Assembly (NCBI RefSeq): GCF_964204865.1
Contig: NC_135259.1
Span: 9,238,001-9,302,000 of the forward strand
DNA length: 64,000 nt
Direction of reading: 5' to 3'
Source of the DNA: Styela clava
Lineage: Eukaryota
The position numbers and the translations under genes were made by a program. This document shows positions 213-59,292 of this stretch, one piece after another (the stretch's first letter is position 1; each line of letters begins with the position of its first letter). The notes below the pieces were generated by a model. It was not told the DNA's origin. It made no database searches and was given only the letters and a program-made list of their open reading frames with translations.

Positions 213-3200
213 TTAGCTATTGGTACTATTTTCATATTCTATCTCGTAGTCACTGTCATCTTCGCTGAGCAATTCTCGATGTTTTGCTACCAAAGAATGT
301 TGCATTTCCCAAGGTTTCATATAATCGTTTGTTTCCTGAATGTTAAAATATATACTATTTAAAACGACCAGGTAGAGCCGTCCCAGAATCTTCGGTGATA
401 TATGATGCCATCATCCCAGCAATCCTCTACCCCACATGCAAGATTTCAGGCTTTTAACGACATCGTACTGTCGGGACCTGGTTACAGAAACTACCATTTC
501 ATTCAGCCCTGCACGTCTCGTCGATTCCCTTGCTTGAATGCTATTTTAATGTCCAGCCGTTTGTAAGCTACACCCAAACGGACAGACCTATAGCCATAAT
601 GAACGAGAATATTGGTCTCATAGAGAGGAGATCCAATAGCATACTTCATACATTTGTTATGATGTGATAAACTATAAGAGATGATATTGAGCTAAGAGTA
701 ATGGAAGTGAAAAGGGAGTATGCAAGAAAAGAAGCATTTATGTCTTCCAACCTAATCGAACAATATTCAAAACGAGAACATCGGTCGGAGACCGAAGACT
801 TATCGATCTTAGATCGGTAATTAGTTAATAACTCGCTAATTATACGACATAATTAACCCAAAATCGATAGGCGTCTGGTCCGAGGTAAGGTGCATGCACA
901 TGCACAATTTGGAGCAGATTCAACCACGCGTTCGTGAGATATCGCGTTCATCTAACAGACACACACACACACAGACATACAAATACCTATCAATATACTT
1001 ACCGATCTTAAGATCGATAAGTAATAATAAAAAATAAATGATTATTTAAAAAATGACTTACCGTAGGAGAACACATAACTTCATAGTCTTCCATATCATC
1101 CGTTAAAGATGAAATTTGCTCACGTAAAGGTAGTATATCTTTTGCAAATACATAGATAGATTCACTTGTTTTAGTTGTATCAGAAGCAGTCTTATTGTGA
1201 TTGTTCACAACAGCAGTCAGCGTCATGTCGTAATTTGGATTAGTCATACTTCTTACAGATTTTTTCTCCGAGATACCCTTATCTTTGACGATTGGTGGTT
1301 CGTGATAAGTGCCAATTTCTGCTAAATTCAATATCGAAGGATCAATTATTTGTTTTACCCTTGAATCAATGATAGGCGGATACTTTTCTACACGAGAGTT
1401 TGCATCTGGTCGAAAACTTTCGTGCATTTCACGAAAGTCATTTGCTTTTTGCCGCTGTGTAACATCTTTAAATTGTAAATCCTTTAAATTGTATTGCATT
1501 TGGGACCATGATTTCGAAATATCTGAATTAACAGTATGAAATATATTCTTAGGAAGTACGTACAGAAAAATATTAGATAAAATTCTTTGGGTAATCGCAT
1601 TATGAACGAAATGCACATATTTGTCATCAGAATTTTTTTTCATCAGCATAAAATAATAAGCGGCATATAATCATAAACTAAGATGTATAAGTTAAAAATT
1701 ATTTGTTGTTGATTGGTGATATCACATGAATTTACTGAATAATGTTTCTAAAATTAATGTAAAATGTTATAAATTAAGTACCGTCGTTTAAACTCTGATC
1801 ATTCAATTCGGTTTCCTGATATTTTACATCGGCATGCATTGGTGATAACGGTTTTATAGCGGATAGCATCGTCCTCTGCTCTTCAATTAGAGCATGCAAC
1901 TTGCTCTCTGACACGCTTTTTCTCGAATTTCGTTTCTTCTCTACAAACTCTTTCTTCATTCTGATAGAATCGCTGGGCGACAACGACTGCTCTCCGACAA
2001 CATTATTGCTATTATTTCCGTTATAAGTTTGCAGAGGTTGTTGTTTATATCGATGCGGCTTTGGAGGACGTTGTGGTATATCAACGAAATCAAAACTTTC
2101 TTTTTGAAGACTAGGTGATTTGGGGGGTCTCGGTGGTGGGGTTGGGCTATCAGATAAGTACGGCTGTTTTGGCAATGTTGAACAGGTCGGTTGGGATATT
2201 GACGTCTCCAAATTATTCGTTGACCATGATTTTTCATATTCTTTGGGACGCAATGCAAATTCTGGCGATTGGGGTGCCTGCAAATATCGTTAATATGTAA
2301 ATTCAATTGAAGCATTATAATTGTTTCATGATTGTCTGGTAATCTCAATATAATAACAACGGCTCATTCCCCAAATACATTGGATATACTTTTTGACTGG
2401 CTAGTTCGCACTCTTGCATCGTAATATTGTATTGAGTTTAAATTCTAAAATGAATCGAAATTGTATCTAAGTTACACAGTATCATAAAAGGTTATCTATT
2501 TATGAAATTAAAAAAGGATTTATAGAACTTACATCACTACTATATCTCCTTGGGCATTTTTTAAGTCGGTGAAAGTCTGAGTCACTGATCTGTTATATAA
2601 AGCATTTTCATTTCAACAATATAAATTTAATAATAAATTTCTGTTGACTACGAATGTCAGTATTGGCGAGGGTTGAAAAAAGGATACGATAAAGATTTTC
2701 CTATTCAAAAGGATATATATATATATATATTCAATAGAAGGTATGGCGATAAAACATGTACTTTTGCATACGGTCACAAACTTTCACAGACGGCAACGTT
2801 AAAAAGACATTTGCGTTCAGATTGCATGGCATGACATTCACTGGCTTGCCATTGAAGTATAAGCTGAATTGATAATACGAATACTCCGAGTCTCGTGGAT
2901 ATTTGGAATACACAAAATATGAAAAGTCTGATCGTTAATTACAAAGATTGAGAAGGCTGTTTAACCTTGATAAGAATGGCATGTGTATGATTTAAGTCGC
3001 AAAATAATTAAAGTGCACAATTCGGCAATGAATATAATGATTATGGGCATTACGCAGTAGTATTAGTTTATGTCACATTATAAGAAAACTTGGGTGATCT
3101 AGACATTAAAACTTACGAATTCCACTGCTGGAAGTTGTTTCATCAAATCAAACGACGCAGGACGATCAATTTTGTGCGAATCCGGCTCCAAAGCTTGTAC

Positions 3201-6200
3201 GGACAGGTTCGTTCGAAGCAATGCCATTTCAAACGGCTTCTCAGATAGAATTTGACTTGTTGGCGAAATTATATCAACTATCAATGTAGTTTCTGAAGAG
3301 AAGTTGAACTGTGTTATAATCGTAGCTGGAGTTAAAGTATACAACCATAAAAAACTTCAGAAAGAATGTGAAGACAAATAGTTACACCAAGTTTATGTGC
3401 ATAGTCAAAGAATTGAATTGAAGAGCTAAAACAACGCAATGTATCGCTTATTGATAATTAGTGATAATATTGAATACGGGCGATGGCGCAAAAGAAATGC
3501 AGGCTCGAGGTTTGACATTTTAGGTTTTATTTGGTCCCAATTCAGTTGCTCACTTGTACACTTTTAACGCCAATATGATCACGGTACGGGATGCGGTGGC
3601 AAAATCGCTATCTTCGACAAAAAATAAACCATAATTTTCTTTGTTACCTGTGACCACTTCTAAAACAGTTAAAGTTTGTCGTTTTGCTAACTGGTCATAG
3701 CCAAGAGAAGAATCGCTGTTTGTAATTTGTACTTTGCACGGCAGGGTTGCATTCAATAAATTTTCTACTCTTGTTACAGGTGTACCCAGACCTTGGGGCA
3801 GTCTGAATGAAACGTAAGTGTTATAAATGTTCATCAGTCTCTAGTTGTGTAGTTGTGCAATATAAATTTTCATCCAGGAAGTTTCAGATCACAGTAACGT
3901 TAATATGGGTGATTGGGAATTCCGAGGTCAGTTTCTCAGGAAAGGTCTCATCTAGTCTAGAATACTAAAAATGTTCCTCAATTCGTTGTGTTCATACAAC
4001 TTAAATAATCCCAGTCTCAGCACAAATTTTCACAATTGTTAACTGCAATAGAATGCTAGTATTACTTACACCTCGTCTACACGATTGGCTAAATCAACAG
4101 GCATTAAAATAAATAAATAAAATGTCAAAATCCATATTACATTTTCAAAGTTCCTTGGTATGATGTATCAACTAAAAATTTCTGTGAGCGAGAGCAACAC
4201 ATCACGAATTTCTTTGAAGTTAGTGCGCGATATACGACAATTCTGCTTCCTTCCAGTATATTGGTCTGTGTAACAAACAGACAAAATGAGTTGTTGAAAT
4301 TGTTAAGGTAGAGTAAATTAAGTAAATTAAATTGAAAGATATACAAAACTGACGCAGAACAAAAGCAGGGTTTTCATGGTGGTGATACCAACGAAGTTTT
4401 CTGGTTTTTCCGATTTTTTGGAGACATTGTGGTATTTGTGGGCAGTATGGCTGGGACCTAGCGAAGATATTTGGATGAAATATTACTGAAAGTGTTTTTC
4501 TTCCCCTCCGATGAAAAAAATATTCATTGAGGTGAAATGGAATATCACAATATATCAATGTATGAATTTAATGTTTTGTCGCTCACTTTCACACAGTTCA
4601 AACTGAAGCCATTGGCATCATAGTTTAGATGTGAATGATTAGCTAGACAATCTGCGCAGCTATTTTAACCATGTATACATAAATATACACAAACAAAGGT
4701 TTTATTTGCAGTACGTTGAGTTCTGATTGCATCATTAGATGTTAAACAAACGAATTCAGTAAACTAAAACGATTGCCTAATCTAATATATATAATGACTA
4801 TTGCAAATGAAATGATTTTTACTGCTTTGCCATATTGTGAAAATCCTATTGAGATTTCCAATTTGAAGTTTACAAAGACAAGGTCAGACACCAGAAAGAT
4901 AATCATTTAACAATACTTTATATTTAATCGCACTGAAAATGCACTTTGTACGAAAATATAGGCTAAGGAAGAAACTTAAATATGGCAAAAACCTATGCTG
5001 GTCAACTACTGGGAAGGGGGACCCGTGATTAAGTATAACGGTATTTAATACAGAAGACAGAAAAAAAGAAAATTATATTATTAAAAAGGTGCGCAATTTT
5101 TGATGACATCATCGCTACACAAAACGAATCCTATAGAGATCAGAGAAATTTCTGAAATTTATAAAAGTAATAATCACTGCAAATTGGTCAAGTAGGTAAA
5201 AAAAAACGATTTTTTTCACAACAACAACAACAATTTTAACAACAAAAACAAGATAATAACATCTGTATCTACAAAAGTAGGAATTTGAGCACTCAAGTAA
5301 GGTAACCAACTAACCATATAATCAGAGCATCGCAAAGGCACAGTAGCACTGAATACAGTGCCCAAGAGCATAGCTTTGTTTGCTTTAGGGGGCCATACCT
5401 TAAATCTAGTAGAAGCCAAAAGACGTTTTTTATTCAGGTCACTGCAAAATGTTATCCACTCGTTAGCTCGAGGGCAAACGGAGCGAGAAAGGAATAATAT
5501 GAGAATTTTCGCCGAAATCTACTTGCAGTGGGTGATCTTTATAAGATCCTAGCATTACATATTATATGTGCAAGACTGGGAGAGTATCATCATATGATGC
5601 CCGAAAAGTATAACGATAAAGGCCATATTTCGATGTAGTAAAACGTATTAAAACTCTGTACATCAATTTAGGACAATTTCGCCAAATATACCTGCTGTCT
5701 TAGTCCGGTAGAAACTGTACCCGCTGTTACCATAAGCAGTAGGGGTTCTCCTATTTCTGTTACAAATTCGAGCGGGAGTTCATTCAGTGGGCCAGAGAAT
5801 ATTTCAGCAGCACTCAAACCTCGTGATTTTTTTCTGCTCAATTCACTATACATTGATTCAGCAATAGACGCTTCGTCAGCAGATATAACTTGTATCTAAA
5901 AGACAATAAGGAAGTGTTAGTTTCAAACGTGATCTCTTACGCCAAAGTAATGTTTGTTAGGAAGATTGTTTGAAACAAGCAACAAGGTAAACCAATTATT
6001 TCCAAATGTGCAAGTCTTATTTCTTACATACAAAACTTCTGACTGGTTCTGGATTACTTTTATCTTTGAATGATTTTTATAAACGGCTTGAATGAGAATT
6101 CATCGACTTGGCAAAGTCACAAGCTCACTGGATGACAAATAAAGCGCCTGGACTTTCACCTCAGGTGGAATGAGTATATTGAGAAGTATAACTAGTTTTG

Positions 6201-9200
6201 TTATTAAAACTGAGTTGAAGGCCGTGTCATTTACTGCCATGCTAATGCAAATATTTATTTGGGGGAGCTAAAGTATATCTACTTTTAAAAAATCAAACAA
6301 CGTCATTTTAAAAATAAAACAGAAACAAATAATTTGAAGTTTGCTTGTTATCTGAATGTAACACAGTAGTCATCAGAAAGTTTTGTTGGTACTCATGAAA
6401 TTACAATTAAACCCATGCATGTAAATTTGTCTTTCACGCATTTTTTTTTTATTTCATATCAACTTTATATCATTGTTCACGATTTTGTTCAAATAAAAAG
6501 TGAAGTTGCCTCTCAATATAAGATTTACCGGGTACAAATATGAGATTACTTAGTATAGTTTAATACATCAGACAATTTGAAAATCCTTGTTATTAAAATG
6601 ATGATAAAACCTTCCCTCTACCAATAAACTATTACCTGGTTGTTCAATGTTCATTTTGCCGTCAGAAATGATTGGGACATTATTAAACAACCGAATTATG
6701 TTGTAATGCTTTATTAGTCAACTCGTATAAAAAAATAATTTCTCTGAAAAGCCAAACTAAATATGTGAACAATAGTGGCTAGATATTTTTGGATATTGAA
6801 GCGAATATCTTCTAACGGTTTTTTTTGTTTGACTTTTTATAAATGGGAGTTTATTTGAATAATCAAATGCCATTGGCAAACAAATATCATAAAATGATTT
6901 TTATTGTAAAATCTACAAAAATATTTCAACCAACCATTAGCTTTGCTGATTCTGGCAAGAAGAATTCTTTCGAATCAAACATAATATTTTTGATCCTAAT
7001 CTTTTGAAATGGTTTTAGAAGTAGTTTTTTATCCCACCAAGTAGGGGGTATTAAGCTACGATCCTCTGAATTCTTTGGTGTAATGTTTTCTTCAGCTTTG
7101 ATTCTTCCACTACAAAAACAAATAACTGAAAAGTTCAGACCCACTCTGTTTTTACCCAGAACATCTCAAAGAGACATTTTCCTGCTTGTATAGGCTTGTT
7201 CTTACACGACGAATGATTGCCAAGTGCGCGTTGAATGTTTAATTTATTTTATTTGTTATTATTAAAAGTTATTCGATGAAAAATTACAAGTATCTCACTA
7301 GAAACAATTTTGAAAAATGGAAGAATTCAAAAGTACGAAAATATTTGCCTGATGGGTTGTTGCTTATTCTTTTTGTCTTTCTTCTTTGCGCTGGGCTTGT
7401 TGATGATATCATAATCTTTGTAAGTGACTTGTGAACATAGTTTTACTCTAAAAAGATTTTTTTATTTAGATTTGTTTCAACCGTTTCACAAACTGTATAG
7501 GTAATAGGTGATATATATTATATTCGGCGTTTTAGGTATTATATATAATATTTTTTCTATAATTTGTATGAGAATTACTATTCTGTAATTTTTACCGTTT
7601 TCACGGTAAATACTAAAAGGAGTAAACTCATTATTATAATGAATCAGTCATGTGCATACCGCTCAGCCAATTTAAATGATTTGCACTATATTATGCTTTC
7701 CAGTGACTACATAAATACACTAAAATATTGTTATCCTTACGTAAATGGTGGCCGACCCGGTTTCCAAGCTCTGACAAACTCTCGTGCACTCAATCCATCT
7801 GGTGTACCTGTCGGGGAAATAATTAAAATGTATAATCTACGGCAAGCATTTCATGTGTCATATTTCTACTTTAATCATTATTCAATGAATGCTTGATGAA
7901 AACAATTACATGGAAACTAATATTAAACTGAATAATAAAAATGGTGAAATTCAACGTGAATATTCAATATCAAATATTTACCAAGTTTTTAGTGACCTAA
8001 AATCTCAGTACCTCAAGCTCTCGTTTCGCGATTTATTTTATATTCGGTTTGTAGATGAGCAAAATTATAAACAAATATTGCACACGATTGGCGTATAAGT
8101 AAGCGATCATAATTTTGGAATCACAGCACTCTGCTTGGAGCAAATTATCACAATGATTGAAAGGAAAATTCGAACAGCTTTCATATACAGATAACTTACT
8201 TTTGAAGCAGTCACTGGGCACTTGTTGAAAAAGTACGTTTATTGATGCAGGAAGGAGAAACTGACCTTCTGTTTTCATTGAACGAACACTCAATATTTCA
8301 TTTCCTGTTAGTGTGTCTTGCACCTTAAAATAAATAAATTACCACCTTTTGAAGTACATTTTTGCATAATATATGACATCTTCCTAGGATTAATTCTACG
8401 GTGATGCTTGTACAGTTGTATTCAATTCTTCAATAAGTTTAGTTTAAAAATTCGCGTTTAAATTACACTGACTTTTGTAAACTAGGAAGTGACATGGGTG
8501 TGTTTATATGAACAACACAATTGCTGTTATTTATGTAAAGTTCTCTATAGGACAGCATGAGATTATATACCTGGTCAAGAATCTCCAATCTTTCCCTAGC
8601 TCGTACAATTTTGTCGTGTAGAAGGATATCAGTCATTGGATAAATCACCCTATTTACTGCCGGAAGAGTGTCAAGAACATCTTGAACTGATTGGAAAATA
8701 TGACCAATCGGGTACGTTGGACAAAGAAGGAATTTTCCGTTGTATTCCAGTGGCAATACAATTTCCAAGTCGTCTATATTTTCACTCGCTGATTTCCATT
8801 CTAGAGGAGTTGAAAGTCTTCTTTCTTTTTTCTCATATTCATTGACAGTTAGACCTAAATCACCAGCGCATTTGTTAAATTTGTTATTTTAATCGAGAAT
8901 ATTTTAATATTAGCTTTTCTGCGTGAAAATGATATTGAACTGTTTTTGTAATATATCAAGCTAACTAAAATTCAAATACCACTTTTTGTAAGGTTCGCAT
9001 AAAATACAGATTTAAGCATGAAATTTAACGTTTTTCTTCACATTGATTTCACTATAATCCAAAAAAAATCAATTCTGCTTAATACGCTTAAATCAAGTTA
9101 TTAAAACATTCAATAAGTTGACAAATATGTTGGTTAGGTACTGGACAATGAACATACTGGCTTCCTACAGAATTTTCGATTATGGAAATAGTTTTCCGTC

Positions 9201-10705
9201 CTATTTTGACACTGATTGATATAGACATAGATAATGACAATGTTGGTATGGACAATATATCTAATAATAGGGTTGTACTGTAAAATATGGTTCTTTGTCT
9301 CAAGACGTGCAATGCCACACAGAATTCCTTACTTTAATTTTGTCAATGTAAGAGAGTCTCAAACCCAACAACTCAACAGTGCATAAGTGTAAAATTATAT
9401 TGCTGAATACTATATATATGTATATATATACATATACAATAGAATAACTACAGGGTAACTCAAAAAAACAGAACCTATAAGTTTGTTACTGACTTATACA
9501 AAAATGAAAAAATTCATTAGATTTTATTTATGCTTCAATTTTTGTTTGGGCATAATTGTATCCAAAAGTTTAGGAATATAAGAAGCTGCGAACAAAAGTT
9601 ATGTTCTATCTAGAATATGTTTTGAATAACCTAGGCATAGGAGAATTTCTTGCGTTGCGAAAAATTATCAAATCATTCACACACTCTATGAAAATTTTAT
9701 GAGTTTCGTTGCAATTGCAGTTTTGAATTCATCTATTGTTTGGGAAATGTTCTGATACACATTTTCCCTCGAATGCCCCCACATATAAAAATTTGAGGTG
9801 TTCAAGTCCAATGACGCTCTCTAGCCAGTAAAGTACGTGATTTGATATGGAGGGGTTTGCCCTGTCTTCCTGGGACCACTAATCAACCAAATCGATCCCT
9901 CTATACTTGGTCGTTCAAATGATGCCCAGCACTTTCTCAGTGCCGTCAAATAATGTTCCATACTCGCGCTTTAATTTCGTCTTCAAACCACTATGGATCA
10001 GTTATGCAGTGTTTGGAAATTGCTTCCCATACTGCACACTGTACTGAGTGTAACGTTTTTTGTATGTAATCAAAATTTTTACAATCGACATACCCAGGCA
10101 GCAGAAAGTGCAATTAAGCAGAAAGCTGAGTGGGTAATTGAAAATTTTGATACAAGTCTGTCTCCTATGCATAAGAGAAATTTTGAACAAATTCTAGAGA
10201 GAACATAACACAAACAGAAGTTCAAGTGAAAAAAAAAATCAAATAATTCATTCCATCATCACGGAAGTAACTAGAAAATTCATGGGTTCCTTTTTTATGG
10301 GATTTATCCTGTATATAAAGTCCACATATTTGACCATCACTTTCTTGTTTTAAAAAGAGTAAAACAGTAAGTTGAATAATCTCAACATGCCTCAATAAAA
10401 ATGGAAATAAATATCATAACCTACCGACTGCTTGGCGCTTCAATGATATTTCATCGGTGCTGATTTCGTGAATAAATACCTCGTCGCCCGATCTCACATT
10501 TGGAACGCTGGGCTCGGCAACAATGACTTTTGCATGAATGGGCCTATTTGATTCCTGCTTTGCTCGATATTCGAACTGCCAAAAAATATGCAGATAAATC
10601 ATTCTTAAATTTGTTATCATGCTATTTATTATAATCTTATGGATCAATTTGTTAAAAACCTACCACTTCTTCCCAGGTGATAACTCCTTTTCTCGACGCC
10701 TTCAT
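213..10705 (-). CDS. Tandem CABIT-domain signalling adaptor, THEMIS/GAREM family (THEMIS-like architecture), ~916 aa, 15 coding exons
   Basis: Phase-consistent GT-AG exons on the minus strand: 10705-10664 (MKASRKGVITWEEV), 10575-10425, 8800-8571, 8323-8200, 7807-7741, 7109-6935, 5895-5692, 4265-4141, 3802-3554, ~3425-3388, ~3325-3117, 2589-2533, 2277-1782, 1522-1062, 335-213 (TAA). CABIT-like segments include EIVLPLEYNGKFLL...FQSVQDVLDTLP and GQFLLPASINVLF, with a second copy FLVDTSYQGTLKIL...TRVENLLNATLPCKVQI. PPPRPPK lies at ~2120-2140. The junctions around 3325-3425 are the least certain. Confidence 0.8.
768..1026. mobile_element. Short non-autonomous Helentron/HINE (DINE-1)-like interspersed element in an intron
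   Basis: Asymmetric subterminal inverted repeat acttatcgatcttagatcggtaa (798-820) versus ttaccgatcttaagatcgataagt (999-1022), a small hairpin tcggtc-gga-gaccga (781-795) and an internal (CA)n tract (~958-975); no TSD seen. Confidence 0.5.
5086..5175. repeat. Dispersed repeat fragment, related copy at ~23506-23605
   Basis: aaggtgcgcaattt..tgatgacatcatc..acacaaaa..gatc..aaattt.tgaaat.tataaaag.aataa is shared between the two loci. Confidence 0.5.
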
Positions 10706-10849: not shown

Positions 10850-11287
10850 CACTCTGGTATGCTATCTCTACGTCTTAAAACTACTCTGGTACGTGATATC
10901 ACTTGCTTAACGTGATCTCCATCGCATACCAAAGTGGAACCAATTGGGGTATAAGTTTAATCTGGTTCCATTTCATTCGAACCCATAATTTGAACCCATG
11001 ACATTTGCACCTGCATGCTATTGCACCTATGAAAATTTGCACCTACGGATATTTGAACCCATACCAATTACCAACCCTAACCCATGAATTTAAGCACCCA
11101 CATATAGCTTAAACCCGCGGATATACGGGTGCAAATGTATGGGTTCAAATGTGCTGTCACCGCTTAATCTCATCAAGACATTCTCATAGAATTCAGTTAC
11201 TAACTCTAACACTGTCATGGTTGGTTTGGGCCTAGGTTAATACTGATATCACTGAGATCCCACACGCTGAGATCGAATACCAGAGTG
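10850..11287. mobile_element. MITE-like element containing a nested insertion
   Basis: Terminal inverted repeat cactctggtat (10850-10860) / ataccagagtg (11277-11287); TSD not resolved. Confidence 0.45.
10964..11161. mobile_element. Nested GG...CC MITE with internal tttgaaccc/tttgcacc repeats and a CCTAACCC motif
   Basis: Flanked by near-identical gtttaatct (10955-10963) / gcttaatct (11162-11170); the left-arm repeats are mirrored by gggtgcaaatg and gggttcaaatg on the right arm. Confidence 0.55.
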
Positions 11288-17414: not shown

Positions 17415-20400
17415 CTACATTTTTGTTTCCGTATAGTAATCATTTTCTTCTAACGTTTTACCTCCTTTCGTGTGATGCCGTTTCGCTTCTATTATCATTG
17501 CTCCGAAGAATATTGCGTTGGATACTGTGCACCCAAGTATCAAATACATAACATTGAAAGGATCTAGTTGAAATAAGAATCCTCCAAACGGCAGAAGTAT
17601 CATGCTACCCAAGGCTTGTCCTGCTGAGAATATAAAAATGTAATGGCCAGACATATTGGTGTATTGTGAAGTCCACGAAACTCCAGCAGGGTAGATTGTT
17701 GCTTGAAAAAATCCGAATAGGAATGTTACAGCCCACGTGATGCCAGCCACCCACTCTCCAAATATACATACAATTATCATAGAAGCTATAGTTCCACACA
17801 AGTCTACAATAATTATAGTCTTTGGTTTGAATTTCGTCATCAGATATATTCCAACCAAACGTCCAGATCCAAATCCAAGCCAATAGAGAGAGTTTATCCA
17901 CGTTCCGTTTGTAGGCTAGAAAAGAGAAATAATGTTTTGTTTTTAAACTAAATGTAACAAGATTTTAGCTAAAAGGCAGTAAAAAGTATACGGTTCAGAC
18001 TGAAAAAGACCTGAAAAGGGTTATATCTTATTTCAAAAATGGTCAAAATATTGAAGTAAAAATAAAACACCGTGTTACTTTTCATATTTCTATACTTTTA
18101 TTTTTAATCACATTGTGTCAAGTCAATAATATTTTTATAAAATAAGGGGTGTCTCAAAAGTAAGTATACACTTTTAATTTTGATTTACTTTTCAGGTACT
18201 CATCATAGAGTGTTTATTTCTTCATAAAACTTAGTATGGATAAATGGTAAAATTTTGGTATTGTTTGCATTTTTCATCAACCCGTAGAATGACAAGAAGA
18301 TTACCCCCAAGAAATGACGTGCAGGATTGTTGTTTGGCAAAAAGCATATAAATCGGTAAGGAAAACTCAGCGCCTCTTTAACGGAGAATTTAGAATTCAT
18401 TCGGCTCTGAATGTTTTTCTCAGAGCGTCTTCCTGATATTTATGTATCAACTACAGATCCAGTATCCATAAATTTACGATGAATTGCATGTATTGTTCGT
18501 CGTGTAGGGGCCAAATTAATTCCAAATTCTCTGTTAAACAGTTTGCCTTACTGATTTATAGGCTTCTTGTCAATTTTGCACCTCATTTCTTGGGTTGTTC
18601 TCCTCGTCATTCTGTGGGATGATAAAGAATGCAAACAATTCCTAAATTTTACTACTCATCCATACTATGTTTTCTTAAGAAATGAACGCTCTATAATGAG
18701 TACCCAAAAGGTGAATCAAAATCAAAAGTGTATACTCACTTTTGAGACAACCTTTATTTTAATAAAATACTAATTATCCTGAAATATTCCAACTTTTATA
18801 TTTACCGTGAAGCATAGTTCCGAGCAAATTGAAACCGAATAGATATAGCTTTGATAAGCAGTCTCTCCAGCCACACAAAAAAAGTAGTAGATGCATACAA
18901 GAATAAATAGAACAAGAACTTTTGATACTCCTTCTTCTTCCCGATCTTCTGTTACTTCATCTTTAGTTTCCCTGAACCCGATTATTGATAAATTAAATTT
19001 TCAGTTAATAAAACATAAAGATATCAGGAAAAATATTTGAAATTGTGTAACAAATTTGTTTTCTAAGTTAATTTCGATAAGTTAAATAAATTACAGCACT
19101 TGCATCCATATTTGCCTCATTTACACTTCTATGCGTATATGGGCAAATAAAATATTATAGTCTCGAGTGGATGTAATAAATTATGAATGCTTGAGGTACG
19201 TATTAATGACCACACAAAATTTTTAATCATAATCAAAAAATAAGTTATTTCTAAAAAGTCTTCATCTATCATTCGAGCTTGTAATCAAAGTTTGTATTCT
19301 CATTTAATGAAAGTAATTTAGAAATTCGGATACATATCGTTTTATTACCATCGAGTTATTTTTAAAAGCATCTACCTGACTCGATCTTCCACTTTCAACA
19401 ATCCCAACACAACAAATATTATAGTAACAACCACAAGAACAACTCCACATATTAGATATGACCAAACAATTGGATTGACCCCGCTCGTTTCCGCATCTGT
19501 CGACTATCCATAAAAAAAATTGTTTGGTATCATTATAATAGCACGTCAATATAAGACGAATGATATATATTTGTTATATTTAATTCGACTAATGAGATGG
19601 AAAAGTTACAAAAAATTGAACTATAAATCCAGCTTTTGTTAAAAAGATAAAATGAAGAAAAAAGTTCACTGACGCGAACTTACCCCATAATTTGGTACTG
19701 TGCTGTTATTTGCTATTGTCTGTACAATTTTGCAATTGTCGCTATCTTCAGGACATATCTCTTGCTGGTCTTGCTCTTTCAGAAATGGTTGTGCTACGTG
19801 AAAAAAAAACAATAATAACAGGTACACTTCTGGCTAATTCATTATAAAATAACGTATTGAAGAATATTGTCTTGTAGAAAATACACGATGTTACTTTAGT
19901 GGAATTTTCTTTTCTTTTTCCTGCACAAACTTTGACTCTCAACGAAAAAATATTTTTCTTCATTTTATATATGTAAATGATAATGTTACATTTACTTTGG
20001 TTCAATATATTAATTCGAGTTTATTTCTCATTTAATTGTTCAGCTCAATTAAAATTACTTCTTTGAAGTTTCTATACCGAGTATATATAAATATCATATT
20101 ATATTACCTATCAGAGGGGCAAAAAACGCTCCCACTGCTATTGTAAAATGGTATGCTGCAATATGTGGTCTCGATTTTTCTTCTCCCCAAATTTGTAAAA
20201 CCAATGCTTGCATTCCTGTGAAGTATAGTCAGTTTTTCTTACTTTTGAAGGAGTATACGGAAAATACTGCGGAATTTACCCCAAATCTGAGTTTGCAAAT
20301 TGTAAAGTATTACAAATTTTGTTCATTTCTCAGATTAGTTGAAAATGAATAGGATATTTTTATTCAGTTAACCTATTTTAACTGGATGAATTTAAAAATA

Positions 20401-25492: not shown

Positions 25493-28400
25493 CTATTGAC
25501 AACGTCCTTTGTAGAAACGATATCTGAAAAAGGGGGAATTCACGGTTAACACAATTATATTTTCTTATAAAAAAGAGTAATCTGAAGTAAAATTCATTGT
25601 CGGAGACAAACGAGGAAGGATAAATATGACAAGTTACTTTTGCACATCTTGAGTGTAATCGACCGTTGTTGCTTAAACAGAAATTAAATGAAATACTGAG
25701 TTGATGAATTTCTTATGAGTGCTACAAGTTTCTAGGAAGAAAAATCGTTGCTTAAAATGAATTTTGATACTAAATCTCATGTTGAAAATACGCGGTTTCA
25801 ATATTTTCAAATTTCATATTACTTACGTTTCACTTAATGCGCAATGCATGCATTTATTTGCTTCACTCTGGAACAGAATCTCTCCGTCTTCTAAAAACCC
25901 TGTAGCAACGCATACTGGATCAAATTCTCTAGTACAATGTCCCCTTTTCTCCTTTTCATTGCAGTTCTGTGTCAGAAATAAATGTTTGTAAATTTTTGTT
26001 AGCCTGGATTACTGCACCTAATTGTTCCGATTCTGATTGCTTTGTAACAATAAAAAAAAACAGGAGAGACGAAAAAAACAAATATCAGACTTTGTCACTT
26101 TCACAACGTAAGACAGGAGTAAATTATCTAATTAGATATTGCTGTTTTGTGGGCTGGTACATACCAGCTGCTGTGTTTTTAACAAAATTACCAAAAACTT
26201 TTTTTTAAATCATCTTTGACTTATTGTCTGATTGAAAATAGGCCGAGGAAACCCTTGTGCAATAGATTAAATGTGTTTTATTATCTGAATTGCTTTTAAG
26301 TGTAGCAAGTTTAATAACAGTCAAAAATCTAATATCTATTTGATAATATTCAAACAATATGCAGACACTTGCGCCAGAACCCTAGGGTGACGCGGAACAC
26401 CGAATGGAAATCATTGTCCAAACAACTCTGATTATTATTTTTCGATATGCGTAATTAAGAATATCATGACTAAGGTATTGAGTAAATAGGCGCGAACGAA
26501 TATAAGAATTACGAATTACTGAGATCGAATACCATATGCAAATAAATCAAAAGTTCCATGCCAGAAATAAAAATTTAATAATAAGTATCTTACATAAAGC
26601 TCAAGGTGTTCCATCATTTCTAAATGAGAATTAAAGGAATAAAAAAATCATTAGAACAACAATACTATATTTGACATTATGCAAGCAGATTTTTCATATT
26701 AAAAATATTACGAAACAAATAGCAAATAGGTCGGGAGAAAAGGCAGTGAAAGCTATTTATTTATTGAATAGTAAAGTATTCAAATATGTTCAAATGTAAA
26801 ATATTTTCTCTGAGTCATTGCCTATTCATCATAAATTTAATCAAAATCTCTGCCTACAATTAAAAATTGTAACATTAAAAAAAGTACCTTTCTTTTTTGC
26901 CTCAATGCATTCGGCCTTGGGAACGCAAATACGTTCATTTGGACTCTTTTGCATCTGTCCTTCTGGGCACGAGCAGTAATCCCCAAACTTGCATTGAAGT
27001 GTGCAGGGTGAATTTTCTCCTTTCATATTTGGATTATCGCATGTTCCTTCACATGGTTCGCAATCAGAGTATGTACTTCCAGCAGGACACATTTCTTAAA
27101 GTAAGGTTTTGGCACATAAATATTGTTACAGAAGTATGGCAATATTTTATAGCTGATTTGAATTAATGATATGAGTTTTAATATGTCAGCCACACATAAC
27201 CACAACATGATATAAATTCCAGTATATTGATGTTTTAGAACAACATCATTACAACAATCATTAGAACAACAATATTATATTTTACATTATGCAAGCAGAT
27301 TTTTTTTATAAAAAAATATTACGAAATAAATAGCAAATAGGTCGGGAGAAAAGGCAGTGAAAGCTATTTATTTATTGAATAGTAAAGTATTCAAATATGT
27401 TCAAATGTAAAATATTTTCTCTGAGTCATTGCCTATTCATCATAAATTTAATCAAAATCTCTGCCTACAATTTAAAATTGTAACATTAAAAAAGTACCTT
27501 TCTTTTTTGCCTCAATGCATTCGGCCTTGGGAACGCAAATACGTTCATTTGGACTCTTTTGCATCTGTCCTTCTGGGCACGAGCAGTAATCCCCAAACTT
27601 GCATTGAAGTGTGCAGGATGAATTTTCTCCTTTCATATTTGGATTATCGCATGTTCCTTCACATGGTTCGCAATCAGAATATGTACTTCCAGCAGGACAC
27701 ATTTCTTAAAGTAAGGTTTTGGCACATAAATATTAATACAGAAGTATGGCAATATTTTATAACTGATTTGAATTAATGATATGAGTTTTAATATGTCAGC
27801 CACAAATAACCACAACATGATATAAATTCCAGTATATTGATGTTCTAGAACAACATCATTACAACAATCATTAGAACAACAATATTATATTTTACATTAT
27901 GCAAGCAGATTTTTTTTATTAAAAATATTACGAAATAAATAGCAAATAGGTCGGGAGAAAAGGCAGTGAAAGCTATTTATTTATTGAATAGTAAAGTATT
28001 CAAATATGTTCAAATGTAAAATATTTTCTCTGAGTCATTGCCTATTCATCATAAATTTAATCAAAATCTCTGCCTACAATTAAAAATTGTAACATTAAAA
28101 AAAGTACCTTTCTTTTTTGCCTCAATGCATTCGGCCTTGGGAACGCAAATACGTTCATTTGGACTCTTTTGCATCTGTCCTTCTGGGCACGAGCAGTAAT
28201 CCCCAAACTTGCATTGAAGTGTGCAGGGTGAATTTTCTCCTTTCATATTTGGATTATCGCATGTTCCTTCACATGGTTCGCAATCAGAGTATGTACTTCC
28301 AGCAGGACACATTTCTTAAAGTAAGGTTTTGGCACATAAATATTATTACAGAAGTATGGCAATATTTTATAGCTGATTTGAATTAATGATATGAGTTTTA

Positions 28401-42410: not shown

Positions 42411-42418
42411 TATAAAAG
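42411..42418 (+). promoter_or_regulatory. Candidate TATA box of the methyltransferase gene
   Basis: TATAAAAG 50 bp upstream of the ATG at 42461. Confidence 0.5.
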
Positions 42419-42460
42419 CGAACACGCAATGTGAGGATCGTGTATAATTCAAATACCAAC

Positions 42461-43315
42461 ATGACGAAACAACTTATCAGATCATATGAAGGAAAGGAGC
42501 TCGCGTTGGACTATCTCAAATATCGTCCCTCGTATCCACACCGAATATCAGAAACTATTATGAAATATGTGAGGTCGAACTTGCCGAATAACTCGAACGA
42601 TAAATTGGAGAATATGCTAGATATTGGGTGCGGAAGTGGACAAGCTACTACACTTTTTGCCTCCTATTTCAAGTCCGTAGTGGGAACAGATATTAGTAGT
42701 CAGCAAATTGAAGTAGCAAATGAAAATAACAATCACCAAAATATTGAATATCTGGTGGTAAGTGATGGAAAATTTCCTGTTGAAGACGAAAGCGTAGATT
42801 TTGTGAATTGTGCCACAGCTGCGCATTGGTTAAACATTCCCGAATTTGAGTCCGAGTGCCAAAGAGTTTTGAAACCAAATGGCTCAGTTGCTATTTATGC
42901 CTACTTGCAAAAGCATATAATGGATGCAGATTCAGGCGAGAACTTGAGCCTGGGAGACAAATATCGTGGAGCTGTAATGGAATTTTTTATTACAATCAAG
43001 GCGCACCCCAACAATTTCATATTAGTGCAAAAATATCAGCCGATATTTGAACAAATGGTTAATCCAACAAAAAAATGGATTGAAGACATCACTTTCAACA
43101 AGTACAGTACATTCGAAACTTTTCTCGGATTTTGGGCGACTATTGGGGAATATCAAGCCTTGATGCGAGATGGAAAGCCCAAAGTAGACCCTCTGGAAGA
43201 GCTTAGAAAAAAGTTGAAAGAAGCATGGGGATATGAAAATTGTAAAGACAGCGATATACGTCTAAAAGTGACATATGAAGTATTTATGATAGTGAGCACC
43301 AAAACGCCGAGTTAA
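42461..43315 (+). CDS. Intronless class I SAM-dependent methyltransferase (Methyltransf_11; trans-aconitate methyltransferase/DDB_G0268948-like), 284 aa
   Basis: Long uninterrupted ORF (ATG at 42461 preferred over GTG at 42431); motifs YLKYRPSYP, LDIGCGSGQAT, GTDISSQQI, ESVDFVNCATAAHWL, RVLKPNG. Confidence 0.92.
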   Translation: MTKQLIRSYEGKELALDYLKYRPSYPHRISETIMKYVRSNLPNNSNDKLENMLDIGCGSGQATTLFASYFKSVVGTDISSQQIEVANENNNHQNIEYLVVSDGKFPVEDESVDFVNCATAAHWLNIPEFESECQRVLKPNGSVAIYAYLQKHIMDADSGENLSLGDKYRGAVMEFFITIKAHPNNFILVQKYQPIFEQMVNPTKKWIEDITFNKYSTFETFLGFWATIGEYQALMRDGKPKVDPLEELRKKLKEAWGYENCKDSDIRLKVTYEVFMIVSTKTPS

Positions 43316-48269: not shown

Positions 48270-50530
48270 GCACTAGGAACAGTGGCTATATTTTTATTGC
48301 CTACTTTTTGCTACCGCCCGTGACTCACGTTGGTGTAAATTTGGTTTTAGAGATCTTAAACATCTTTCCGAGCGTACCAGGGATCATCAATCTTCTATGG
48401 AGCATCTGGACAATGCAGTAAAATACCGAACATTCGGAAATGTTAATATTGCAGCACAGTTGGATGAAGGACGCGCGGTTTCTATTCGTCGGCACAACCA
48501 AACGTCGAGAAAAACCGCCATGTTCTAGGTCGATTGATAGATGTTTTGAAGTTCATTGGTTGTCACGAGCTGTCCCTCCGTGGGCACGATGAACGGGCTG
48601 GCTCTTCTAATAGAGGGGTATTTTTGGATATGGTGGAATACACCGCATCCCTAGATACAGTATTGAGAGATCATCTTGACGCCGCAACTGTTTCGAAAGG
48701 GACATCTAAGGATATCCAAAATGATTTGCTCGACTCAATGTATAAAATGTATTTACAACATTTAGCTCTGGAAATTGGGAATTGCCAGTTCCTTTCGATT
48801 CAGTCTGACGAGACAACTGACATCACGTGCGTTTCCCAACTGGCTGTGATTTTTCGGTTTGTGAAAGATGGTAAACCTACCGAGATATTTCACAGCTTTG
48901 TACCAATCGTTGATCGCACGGCTTGCGGGATATCGGCTGTACTGAAAGAAGTGTTAGAGCCTTACAACGCGAAGTCAAAATTGATAGCTCAAACTTATGA
49001 CGGCGCGGCAGTCATGAGTGGGTCGAAACATGATGTTCAAGTTTATATAAAAGAAGATTTACCTTATGCGCATTTTTTACATTGTTATGCACACCAATTT
49101 AACCTCGTTATTAAAAATATGTGTCTTGATACTCTTGATACCCCTCTCGTCCGTATATTTTTTGCAAATGTTTCGGGGTTTTCTTCATTTTTTTTCCGTT
49201 TCGCCGAAGCGCTCTGACCTCCTTTGCCAGATATGTAGCCGCCGTCTCCCAGCTTGTGCACCAACACGTTGGCACTTCCAATCACGCGTGGTGCAGGGCG
49301 TGTCCGAAATTAGGTCTGAGCTCATTGAGTGTTTCAATGGCATTCAGAGCTCTCCGGTTTGGGACGAACGCTCTGTGAGGGAGGCGGTAGGTCTAAAGCG
49401 TCTGCTAGAAGATGGTGAGTTTTCATTTTTTCTCGCGTTTTTCTCCAGAATATTCTATCACGTGGATGTATTATACGGCGCATTGCAGTCAAGGCTATTG
49501 GATGGAGCGTCTGTGCAGTCGTGTATTTCAGACTTCTGCGATGCTGTATCTCGTATCCGGGAAACAATAAAATACGACGACACATGGAGTGCTTCTTTAC
49601 GCCGCGGGCAAACAACGCAGCGTTTGATTTTGTCTGCAAAGGGATGCTGTGACATTCTGGTGAATCAAATAGGCGATCGTCTGCGCACTGAACACCTTGC
49701 CGCGTTCTCTTTGATGAACCCCAAAATTTTTTCAAAATTTGCGTCAATTTCCCATCCATTTGTTGGCTACTGTCTCCAAATTTTACCCCATGATAAACGT
49801 GGGTAAATTGGAAAATGAATTGCGATGTATATACACCAATCAAACTTTTTTGAACATCACATCAACTTGCGCGCTCTATGGGTTCCTCATAGATAACACT
49901 CTAGTAACTACCTTTGCGGCGTCTGCAAAATTTTCAGCACGCTGAAGCGTAAAAAAACGTATCTCAGAAACACAATGAAGCAAGAAAGATTAAATTCCTT
50001 GGCTGTTTTATCCATTCACAGAGACGTTATTTCTGGGATGCATGACTTTAATCAGCGCGTTATTGAGCATTTTGCTTCCAAGAAACCGCGGCGTGTTGCA
50101 TATGTTCAAGCAGTAGAAGTCTAGCAGCATATATATCTATGAGTGAGCGACGCATGTCCTTATCTTTGCATTAACTTTCCTTTCTTCATAGTAACGTTTC
50201 AAACCTTATTTTAGGTTTTGTCTGCTTTCCCGAAGTTTCTGTTGATATGTCATTGTATTTATCTGGGTAAATATTGCCTTTCCTTTTGAAAGAGGTTTCA
50301 AAATAAACTATGTCTATATTCATTAATCCCTTGGCTTGGACCGGTTTCAAAGACACTTTCTTATCGTTAAAAATTGTCGCTTTTGCCGATTGGTTGTTAC
50401 CGATGGAATGGTTTTTATACTCATAAAATGATGGGAGAACGTACAGCGCTCATCCTGTCCCCGTAGATGGGGGTGACTTGGTCCCGCAGTAGCTTGCCCC
50501 GGTTGTCAAAATGACCACGCGCCGCCACTG
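48270..50530 (+). mobile_element. 5'-truncated hAT DNA transposon
   Basis: Contains the transposase relic and ends in cacgcgccgccactg (reverse complement of a cagtggcggc hAT-type TIR) at 50516-50530; no matching left end or TSD found. Confidence 0.75.
48290..50116 (+). pseudogene. Frameshifted hAT transposase (ZMYM1-like / DUF4371 + hATC type)
   Basis: TTF-type zinc-finger relic (CLLF..W...GF.DLKHL....HQSSMEH), LRGHDE, DETTD, YDGAAVMSG, HCYAHQFNL, TRW and LKRKKTYLRNTMKQERLNSLAVLSIH, spread over several frames. Confidence 0.92.
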
Positions 50531-57500: not shown

Positions 57501-59292
57501 ACAGCAATTCATCTTTCTGCAAAAATATTCTGGAGATAAGTAAGAAATTATCAGAAGACGAAGTTGAACATTTTCTTCTACAAAGCGGTTCATCACAATT
57601 TTTTGAAAAATATCCATTTTTATCTACTCAAGGACATTATTTAACCAGTGATATGAGAAACACATTACAGGTATATAGGTTTTTATCAAAACAGATAACA
57701 AAACATTCCATAGTCAGATATTTTATCAATTCTTCATTGGTTTATAAACATATTCGAATTCTGTATTGTATTTTCTTTTTCTTTCGATAGTTTTTGTCGC
57801 TGTTTTTAATGATGGCTAATAATATTGAAAATTTGATTCTCCTATATTAAGATATATTCGAGTCTGTATTGTTATTGTTTTGTAACGAATTACCCTTCTG
57901 TTTTAGGCAAATCCATAGTTTCATAATTGTACATATCCCAAATAGTATAGCTCAGGGTGGTCCAAGGTTGCAAGATTGAAGGGCTGTATTGACAAGTACC
58001 GATAACGACCTCTCAAATCGATCACAGGACGTCATTCCCATAGGCCTTGTTTTGACAGTTTCAATTACAACCTTGAAATTTCGTGATTTTAGCAAATATC
58101 ATTCTCGACATTGGTATTAGGAGAAGGGTTTGAATCTCGTAACCCAACTCCAGCACGGGACGTGTTGCGGCCCGCATGCTAGGGTTCGGACCACCTTGGT
58201 ATAGCTGGTAACATGCTGGTTGAGTGAAACATGGTCGTTGCTATATATCTGTAAAATTAAATTTGTACGCTTTGTTTAATAAATACCATTCGGTTCAGAC
58301 CATGCCATCAGAAATTCTACCAGGACGATTATACCAGGGTAATGCAAAACATGCATTGGATTCATACATCATAACATCGCTAGGTAATTATCGAAGTTTT
58401 AATCATGTTACTCTTAATTTTAAAATATCCAAGTGGATCTATTTTGCAGCAGAATTTTGGTAAATAACGAACAATCACAAAATTTAGCATAAATCATGTT
58501 TTACATATAACATTGGTTAATTTCACAGAAGAGAAAAAATATTATCTACCTCAATCTTTTGAAGCTCAGAATAGAACCTATTTTGGTTTTGGTTTTCTGG
58601 ACTTCTCTATTCAGTTTAGTCTAGGTATAAATATTTTTGATCGAAAGTAGGTACTTCATTGAAATAGACCCATTTTTTCATCAAGATCCATGGATATTGA
58701 ATAAGTTGACCAAATGAAAGAATTGAATCAGCTGTAAATCAATGTTTGTATACTAGTTGGCTTCAGAATGAATGCTTGCATTGCCTTCTTTAAATGAGTC
58801 TGTCATATACCTTCTATTTCAGGTATCTCACATATTGTTAATGTCACTCTGGAACATCCAAACAGATTTGAAGATACTGTAAAATACTTGCGGATTCAAC
58901 TTGATGATCGACCTCAAGTTGACCTTCACGCTTGGTTGCCAAGAACCAGTGAATTTGTGCAGTCAGCTATTGGTAGAGTGAGTATTAAAAGTCAAACAAC
59001 TGAAAAACATGAAAATGGAAAAGACTCCGGTGACAATCGAACTCCTGGTGATGTGAGCAGTAAAAAAGAAGTAGTACTTGTTCACTGTAATTTAGGTAGA
59101 AGCCGCAGTTCCACTGTAGTTTTAGGATATCTGATGCAAGCGTGTAGGATGACTCTGAAAGATGCAAGTCGATTACTAAAAGACTGCAGACCAACTGTCC
59201 GCCCTAACATCGGTTTTCTTGAACAGTTACTGCAATATGAAAAAGAGGTGTTTGGTAAAAATGTATCTGATTTGAATGATCTGCCTTTTTAG
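54539..59292 (+). CDS. STYXL1: Rhodanese (CH2) + dual-specificity phosphatase protein, MK-STYX/STYXL1-like but with an intact catalytic motif, ~432 aa, 6 exons
   Basis: Phase-consistent exons 54539-54673, 56162-56481, 56957-57073, 57499-57670, 58299-58383, 58823-59292. Rhodanese part ELYNLI..DTGYLLLLDCREKSEYEAAHIIT..KYPFLSTQ; DSP part PSEILPGRLYQG, ISHIVNVT, IQLDDRP, VLVHCNLGRSRS, GYLM, RPTVRPNIGFLEQLLQYEK. The symbol marks family resemblance; orthology is unproven and exon 1 is the least certain. Confidence 0.88.
57953..58198. mobile_element. hAT-type MITE with perfect 8-bp TSD in a phosphatase intron
   Basis: TIR cagggtggtcc / ggaccaccttg; TSD gtatagct at 57945-57952 and 58199-58206. Confidence 0.9.

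What the first reader, a model, noticed from the sequence alone, without database searches (positions are those of the whole stretch)
1782..10705. THEMIS-type architecture (CABIT-CABIT-PPPRPPK) in an invertebrate-looking genome
Seen: two successive CABIT-like modules followed by PPPRPPK (~2120-2140) and a second PQRPPK (~2059-2076), with no SAM domain visible. Established: vertebrate THEMIS has two CABIT domains and a PPPRPPK motif that binds the GRB2 C-terminal SH3 and links to SHP1 in thymocyte selection, whereas GAREM has one CABIT plus a SAM domain. Inference: a THEMIS-like GRB2/SHP module that does not depend on T-cell receptors, possibly acting in haemocytes.
Basis: partly seen in the sequence, partly recalled or inferred. 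Interest (0 to 1): 0.72.

Follow-up and report, generated by a model that had tools for sequence, protein, structure and literature searches.

The report
Sea-squirt THEMIS relative, one domain headless
This spliced sea-squirt gene encodes a protein with the two-domain layout of the T-cell protein THEMIS, but its second domain lacks the inserted 'head' piece; it likely works as a GRB2-binding signalling scaffold, which would mean the layout is older than T cells.

Summary
A 15-exon minus-strand gene (CDS 10705-213) encodes an 844-aa protein identical to a RefSeq Styela clava 'uncharacterized' model; 13 of 14 introns are spliced in RNA-type contigs. It has two CABIT-matching modules, two PxRPxK motifs at the stated places and no SAM. 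Three corrections: (1) the gene runs two exons beyond 1782, adding a tyrosine-rich tail; (2) module 2 is not a whole CABIT: it lacks about 80-90 residues that map to the SH3-like head of human THEMIS CABIT2 (346-438), which the Ciona orthologue keeps; (3) there is no tyrosine at the Tyr34 (SHP1) position, and the PxRPxK motif lies about 45 residues further from the CABIT2 helix than in THEMIS. Profiles of the tunicate proteins find human THEMIS (E 1.5e-7), and the Ciona model aligns to THEMIS over 475 residues. Likely a GRB2-bound docking scaffold. Binding, SHP regulation, haemocyte expression and orthology (no tree possible) are untested. No paper found describes it, but the founding paper could not be read. 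The scan earlier noted sponge CABIT-SAM genes, not this architecture.

The parts
213..10705 (-). Whole CDS, 15 exons, 844 aa; identical to RefSeq XP_039261471.2 (LOC120337672, Styela clava, P0003)
10664..10705 (-). Coding part of exon 1 (aa 1-14); the RNA-type contig extends about 150 nt further 5'
10425..10575 (-). Exon 2 (aa 15-64), N-terminal core of CABIT1; no Tyr at the THEMIS Tyr34-like position
8571..8854 (-). Exon 3 (aa 65-159), best Pfam CABIT stretch
   Evidence: (E 3.5e-4 for the open frame)
8200..8323 (-). Exon 4 (aa 160-200), end of the CABIT1 head; the CABIT cysteine is not kept
7741..7807 (-). Exon 5 (aa 201-222)
7349..7447 (-). Exon 6 (aa 223-255), lysine-rich insert in CABIT1; followed by a GC-AG intron
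6935..7109 (-). Exon 7 (aa 256-314), C-terminal part of CABIT1
5692..5895 (-). Exon 8 (aa 315-382), linker and start of module 2
4141..4265 (-). Exon 9 (aa 383-423), N-terminal half of the CABIT2 core; matches human THEMIS up to about residue 345
3803..4140 (-). 338-nt intron at the place where the CABIT2 SH3-like head is missing; no remnant of the Ciona head found in it
   Evidence: spliced in 3 of 3 RNA-type runs, 0 of 1 DNA-type run; tblastn and translation
3648..3802 (-). Exon 10 (aa 424-475), C-terminal half of the CABIT2 core; matches human THEMIS from about residue 439
3117..3292 (-). Exon 11 (aa 476-534), rest of the CABIT2 core
2533..2589 (-). Exon 12 (aa 535-553), predicted helix in register with the THEMIS central helix; K544-K545 and R548-R549-Y550 against human R544-R545-Y546
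   Evidence: register read by eye
1782..2277 (-). Exon 13 (aa 554-718), proline-rich region and a predicted helix at aa 677-692
2119..2139 (-). PPPRPPK, motif 1 (THEMIS-like, followed by S-P-S-L; human has H-P-S-V)
   Evidence: kept in unnamed relative P0009
2059..2076 (-). PQRPPK, motif 2, followed by Pro (RxxKP as in Gab-type GRB2 ligands)
   Evidence: P0009 has PPPRPPKP here
1062..1318 (-). RefSeq isoforms use upstream acceptors (845 and 912 aa)
213..335 (-).
   Evidence: RefSeq identity and GT-AG ends, exon match; not tested with reads

Best explanation
The gene encodes a spliced, THEMIS-related protein with one whole CABIT module, a second module that lacks its SH3-like head, two PxRPxK motifs and a tyrosine-rich tail, and it likely works as a cytoplasmic scaffold that binds the C-terminal SH3 domain of GRB2. 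Shown: gene structure, splicing, domain order, missing head, motifs, and GRB2 and SHP2 genes in the genome. Inferred step 1: GRB2 SH3C binds the PxRPxK motifs; because the head that steadies the motif in THEMIS is gone and the motif is displaced, binding likely leans on motif 2 (RxxKP, Gab-like) more than on the THEMIS three-site clamp. Inferred step 2: GRB2's SH2 domain would carry the protein to phosphorylated receptors or adaptors, where its tail tyrosines would be phosphorylated and dock SH2 proteins. Inferred step 3: any effect on SHP2 would not run through a Tyr34-type site. Inferred ancestry: the CABIT tandem is shared with vertebrate THEMIS and the head was lost later on the Styela line.
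For: Splicing: 13 of 13 listed intron joints in runs X1 and X2, 11 of 13 in X3, 0 of 13 in the DNA-type run X10; one 3,224-nt contig of X2 carries all 13. Pfam CABIT over cut-off for the whole protein and for module 2 alone. Profiles of tunicate-type proteins rank human THEMIS first in the PDB: E 1.5e-7 (A2), 2.4e-4 (A3, best stretch without the proline motif), 8.6e-4 (A1); module 2 lands on CABIT2 each time. The gap maps to human 346-438; the head purified as a soluble unit is 347-436 (10.1101/2024.10.01.616165, section 7). Ciona LOC100183904 is collinear (BLAST E 2e-23; z 35 and 12 for the two modules) and keeps an insert of about 80-88 aa with a Cys and an FP...G.F motif. ESM Atlas: THEMIS is the first hit for Styela (0.93; TM 0.40, 389 aligned, aa 6-600) and for Ciona (0.91; TM 0.49, 475 aligned). 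Modules 1 and 2 are not detectably alike, so the tandem is old. Both motifs are kept in unnamed relative P0009 (z 17.8). Two GRB2-type genes and one SHP2-type gene lie in the genome.
Against: No tree and no binding test. Single-sequence searches of Styela or Ciona against the PDB do not find THEMIS. Module 1 against THEMIS CABIT1 is not significant (-0.9 to 0.6 bits) and fell out of register. The PDB hits cannot separate THEMIS from GAREM, as no GAREM chain appeared among them. The Styela Atlas structure hit is under the bar for a name. Ciona has no exact PxRPxK and no basic pair at the R544/R545 register, so GRB2 binding is not evidently conserved across tunicates. The THEMIS proline peptide alone does not bind GRB2 (PMC13381594, section 8), and deleting mouse aa 411-434 in the CABIT2 head abolishes binding (PMC3931654, passages). 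The full PxxxRxxKP pattern is absent. The single tail tyrosine motifs are no more frequent than in shuffles (P 0.07-0.54); only the acidic context is mildly enriched (P 0.027, overlapping counts).
Confidence: 0.62

Rival explanations
1. Convergent layout: a single-CABIT (GAREM- or Serrano-type) gene duplicated its domain and lost SAM in tunicates independently of vertebrate THEMIS; it may still bind GRB2, but is no THEMIS orthologue.
For: Module 1 does not match THEMIS CABIT1 significantly. Atlas ranks arthropod and other CABIT clusters at the same feature score, 0.93. Single-CABIT proteins also carry a proline-rich sequence (PMC9250082, passages). Module 2 is spread over five exons, while mouse Themis2 encodes CABIT2 in one exon (PMC4082722, passages).
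Against: Module 2 matches CABIT2, not CABIT1, and the match runs on through the central helix into the proline motif. The Ciona model aligns with THEMIS over 475 residues, i.e. across both modules. The two modules are not alike, as a young duplication would make them.
Confidence: 0.22
2. One reading: a fully THEMIS-like constitutive GRB2 clamp that tunes SHP phosphatase in haemocytes.
For: Helix and basic residues in register with human R544/R545; motif 1 nearly identical to the human one; SHP2 and GRB2 present; Styela has a haemolymphoid region with transcriptome likeness to thymus (PMC10980280, passages).
Against: CABIT2 head missing; motif 52-56 residues from the basic pair against 9 in human; no Tyr34 counterpart, a residue described as conserved in species with adaptive immunity (10.1101/2021.12.21.473566, passages); no tissue data.
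Confidence: 0.12
3. The missing head is an artefact of annotation, assembly or exon skipping.
For: The gap falls exactly on an intron (4140-3803); contigs drop rare splice forms and 7 joints were not shown.
Against: Direct exon 9-10 joint in 3 of 3 RNA-type runs from three studies; the 338-nt intron has stops in all three frames and no likeness to the Ciona head; the Ciona protein finds only this locus in the genome; unnamed relative P0020 is short at the same place.
Confidence: 0.03

Closest known systems
Vertebrate THEMIS / THEMIS2 / THEMIS3 (human THEMIS, PDB 9iaz, 9i3p, 9uou)
   Same: CABIT-CABIT-helix-PxRPxK-disordered tail, no SAM; two proline motifs; collinear match of module 2, helix and motif.
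   Different: CABIT2 head (human 346-438, with Cys413) absent; CABIT1 cysteine not kept; lysine-rich insert in CABIT1; motif about 45 aa further from the helix; no Tyr34 counterpart; 290-aa tail with 12 tyrosines; 15 exons.
Ciona intestinalis LOC100183904 (XP_018667756.1, 808 aa, uncharacterized)
   Same: Collinear orthologue candidate, about 25% identity, both modules, same insert in module 1; this locus is its only match in the Styela genome.
   Different: Keeps the CABIT2 head and both cysteines; no exact PxRPxK but a degenerate one right behind the helix and a PxxPxR motif; no Pfam hit at E up to 1.
GAREM1/GAREM2 and invertebrate CABIT-SAM proteins (Serrano-type name recalled, from no call)
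   Same: CABIT family, proline-rich region, GRB2/SHP context (PMC4082722, PMC9250082, passages).
   Different: One CABIT plus SAM; here two modules and no SAM.
Gab1/Gab2-type docking proteins
   Same: RxxKP motif for GRB2 SH3C (PMC13381594, section 8) and a tail of tyrosines (general layout recalled).
   Different: No PH domain found by Pfam; CABIT modules instead; analogy only.

Membership tests
CABIT-domain superfamily (PF12736) | Pfam CABIT score over the curated cut-off | tested here: met
   41.4 bits whole, 26.8 bits for aa 331-555, cut-off 24
CABIT-domain superfamily (PF12736) | Core pattern with the conserved cysteine (as given in PMC9250082) | tested here: not met
   0 strict matches in Styela, Ciona and P0020; Ciona keeps the cysteines, Styela does not. 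The review says these cysteines are dispensable for THEMIS function.
CABIT-domain superfamily (PF12736) | CABIT fold (two-barrel core with inserted SH3-like head) | tested here: inconclusive
   Own models too poor (pLDDT 42 and 35); Atlas models align to THEMIS at TM 0.40 and 0.49
THEMIS family | Two tandem CABIT modules | tested here: met
   Two CABIT-matching modules in one spliced ORF; the second is incomplete (next row)
THEMIS family | Complete CABIT2 including SH3-like head with Cys413 | tested here: not met
   Gap equal to human 346-438; present in Ciona
THEMIS family | PxRPxK motif behind CABIT2 | tested here: met
   aa 601-606 and 621-626, but displaced by about 45 aa; absent in exact form in Ciona
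THEMIS family | No SAM domain | tested here: met
   Pfam on 3 of 3 isoform lengths; tail pLDDT under 50
THEMIS family | Basic hotspot pair R544/R545 on the central helix | tested here: inconclusive
   K544-K545 and R548-R549 in Styela by eye; Q-N in Ciona
THEMIS family | Tyr34 phosphosite for SHP1 | tested here: not met
   No Tyr in aa 18-70 of Styela or aa 1-71 of Ciona
THEMIS family | Groups with THEMIS1-3 in a tree against GAREM and Serrano | not testable with these tools
   No vertebrate or insect CABIT sequence was returned as a usable protein
THEMIS family | Binds GRB2 SH3C; modulates SHP1/2; leukocyte expression | not testable with these tools
   Needs experiments; runs carry no tissue labels
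GAREM family | Single CABIT plus C-terminal SAM | tested here: not met
   Two modules, no SAM

The most novel reading that the evidence does not exclude
The THEMIS scaffold (CABIT1-CABIT2-helix-proline motif) already existed in the common ancestor of tunicates and vertebrates, before T-cell receptors, LAT/LCK-type wiring and the Tyr34 site; tunicate copies are overlooked because they are nearly invisible to Pfam. Styela carries a natural head-less CABIT, showing that the SH3-like head is a removable module, and has shifted GRB2 binding from the THEMIS clamp to a Gab-like linear motif.
Probability: 0.45. Interest if true: 0.72.

Novelty: new variant of a known kind. Interest (0 to 1): 0.55.

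Why it matters
The papers read describe tandem CABIT only for the mammalian/vertebrate THEMIS genes. A tunicate counterpart would date the scaffold to before adaptive immunity and make its ancestral, TCR-free job testable in Ciona, a tractable animal. The Styela protein is also a natural version of the deletion that the CABIT2 crystal paper proposed (head inserted into a core), so the pair Ciona (whole) / Styela (head-less) tests directly what the head does and whether the core folds alone. It is not a new kind of system, and function is unproven.

Tried and rejected
Complex prediction of aa 1-635 with Styela GRB2 SH3C was not available; no verdict. AlphaFold2 models from shallow alignments were poor (pLDDT 42.4 and 35.4); Foldseek gave no match at E up to 0.001 and VIA-align no Z of 5 or more; THEMIS was not among the rows shown. 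Aa 361-505 matched interdigitated tandem Tudor domains at Z 4.6, rmsd 3.1, 96 aligned, which fits a two-barrel core but is a middling score and not counted. Word-based homologue searches returned only the protein itself; the full HMMER scan returned 6 proteins, all tunicate or unnamed. Genome search with PF12736 found nothing, not even this gene, and no control rang, so it says nothing on GAREM-type paralogues; protein searches found this locus only, plus one weak hit with stops. Metagenome scan with P0020: 68 pattern hits, 0 confirmed. No listed RNA holder is on record as RNA. Exon-level Pfam found CABIT in 1 of 17 frames. Module 1 versus module 2 comparisons were all null. Supplement searches for THEMIS/GAREM/CABIT or the gene ids gave 0 hits in PMC12212465, PMC9953650 and PMC10980280; these tables may use other gene ids and the two large files appear cut near 4 million characters, so this is no evidence on expression. 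Rejected: confusion with ascidian s-Themis/v-Themis self-sterility genes (listing); that these are unrelated proteins is recalled, from no call. Weak PDB rows at E above 0.03 were taken as chance.
Full report
1. The gene. The finding lies on the minus strand. Contigs of three RNA-type runs from three studies show 13 introns, 12 GT-AG and one GC-AG: 13 of 13 joints in X1 (one placed 2 nt differently) and X2, 11 of 13 in X3, 0 of 13 in the DNA-type run X10. That these runs are RNA is the tool's guess, but the joints are canonical and in frame. One 3,224-nt contig of X2 carries all 13 joints, so the model is not two genes. The frame does not stop at 1782: exon 1318-1062 follows, and a last exon 335-213. 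The last intron was not tested with reads; it has GT-AG ends, and the 15-exon translation is identical to stored protein P0003, RefSeq XP_039261471.2, 'uncharacterized LOC120337672', Styela clava. The RefSeq contig length equals that of the window's contig. All 14 matches of the protein in the genome lie at this locus.

2. The motifs. They are the only PxRPxK in the window's six frames; two arose in 1 of 100,000 tail shuffles. An unnamed 127-aa fragment, P0009, keeps both motifs and the helix behind them (z 17.8, 0 of 500 shuffles), which points to selection. Pfam finds no SAM in any isoform length.

3. Two modules, the second head-less. Pfam CABIT scores 41.4 bits on the whole protein (best stretch aa 94-186) and 26.8 bits on aa 331-555 alone (best stretch aa 436-515, profile 168-246; cut-off 24). 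A scan of 1.84 billion proteins gave 6 hits at E up to 0.001, among them Ciona intestinalis LOC100183904. Ciona is collinear in both modules but has an extra 80-88 residues in module 2 with a cysteine and an FP...G.F motif. Profiles built from these proteins find human THEMIS first in the PDB (E 1.5e-7, 2.4e-4, 8.6e-4). The gap exists in the profile by construction, but where it falls on THEMIS is informative: residues 346-438, against a head of about 345-457, soluble as 347-436, in the crystal paper (10.1101/2024.10.01.616165, sections 7 and 11, which speculate that the head is an insertion). In Styela the gap coincides with the 338-nt intron 4140-3803, spliced directly in 3 of 3 RNA-type runs and without any remnant of the head. 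Unnamed P0020 is short at the same place, perhaps with other borders.

4. How close to THEMIS. For: ESM Atlas puts THEMIS first by features and by structure for both Styela (TM 0.40, 389 aligned, under the bar for a name) and Ciona (TM 0.49, 475 aligned, over the bar). The profile match runs from the CABIT2 start through the central helix into the proline motif; by eye Styela V532-E533...I535...F540-H541...K544-K545 is in register with human V532-E533...I535...Y540-Y541...R544-R545, and R548-R549-Y550 follows. The two modules do not resemble each other, so the tandem is old. Against: module 1 versus CABIT1 is not significant; single sequences do not find THEMIS; the PDB hits include no GAREM to compare; other CABIT clusters tie in feature score; Ciona lacks an exact PxRPxK and the basic pair; no tree could be built; my own folds were too poor to test the structure.

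5. Mechanism. In human THEMIS, GRB2 SH3C is held by the motif, by R544/R545 on the helix and by both CABITs; the CABIT2 head steadies the motif; the motif alone does not bind and has His where Gab-type ligands have Pro (PMC13381594, sections 7, 8, 12). Tyr34 phosphorylation drives SHP1 association (same paper; 10.1101/2021.12.21.473566, passages; PMC13320886, abstract and introduction). Styela has no head, its motif 1 is 52-56 residues from the basic pair instead of 9, its motif 2 ends in K-P, and it has no tyrosine in aa 18-70. The genome holds two GRB2-type genes, whose SH3C exon matches human GRB2 best, and an SHP2-type gene. My reading (inference, 0.62): a GRB2-bound docking scaffold using linear motifs more than the clamp, brought to phosphotyrosine sites by GRB2's SH2 domain, with tail tyrosines (NPxY748, Y797xxM, Y723/Y809xxP, Y838xN; motif labels recalled, singly not above chance) as docking sites.

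6. What is known. The family is known to reach cnidarians, with tandem CABIT described for mammalian THEMIS1-3 and CABIT plus SAM for GAREM (PMC4082722, PMC9250082, PMC3931654, passages). Searches: CABIT+THEMIS+invertebrate 0 papers; CABIT+THEMIS 28, CABIT+GAREM 14, 'CABIT domain'+evolution 6, none on tunicates by title or abstract start; the listed rows had no THEMIS mention; one search listed the self-sterility Themis genes; one search was noise. Johnson 2009, which surveyed the family, and Paster 2013 were not held and I saw nothing of them; the former or its supplement may already list a tunicate protein. The database already tags the Styela protein with PF12736, while Ciona has no Pfam hit.

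7. Verdict. A real, spliced gene of THEMIS-type layout in the sister group of vertebrates, with a clean natural loss of the CABIT2 head. It works likely as a GRB2 scaffold; it fails two THEMIS features (whole CABIT2, Tyr34), so I file it as a THEMIS-related variant, not as a member. Interest 0.55.

Noticed in passing
P0011 (Ciona LOC100183904): Apparently a complete two-CABIT protein that Pfam misses entirely (0 families at E up to 1) yet aligns to THEMIS over 475 residues; a better candidate for the ancestral form than the Styela gene.
   Followed up: partly
P0020 / P0008 (unnamed, JGI/IMG): 559-aa relative that also lacks most of the CABIT2 head and ends right behind the helix, with no proline motif; organism unknown.
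   Followed up: partly
L033:3632-5022 and L034:1158-7883 (G000:C1, about 7.70-7.72 Mb): Two GRB2-type genes lie next to each other on opposite strands; their C-terminal SH3 domains are 52% identical and differ in the RT loop.
   Followed up: partly
window 7110-7348: GC-AG intron supported in 3 of 3 RNA-type runs.
   Followed up: yes
window 1319-1522: Alternative acceptors in RefSeq isoforms add 1 or 68 aa before exon 14; the listed joints show only the 844-aa form, but X1 and X3 have some depth in this intron.
   Followed up: no
window 769-1030, 9591, 10988-11152: High-copy repeats (very high contig depth and many loose ends), including one inside the last intron and one just upstream of the gene.
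   Followed up: no
window 17415-17915 (-), 42416-43315 (+), 58798-59292 (+): Neighbouring coding frames: an MFS transporter exon, a single-exon class I methyltransferase, and a dual-specificity phosphatase exon.
   Followed up: partly
window 48468-49806 (+): DUF4371 transposase-like sequence in two overlapping frames, probably a broken DNA transposon.
   Followed up: no
window 26955-28353: Dispersed repeats at about 610-nt spacing seen as recurring tblastn noise; Tandem Repeats Finder (period limit 500) did not list them.
   Followed up: no
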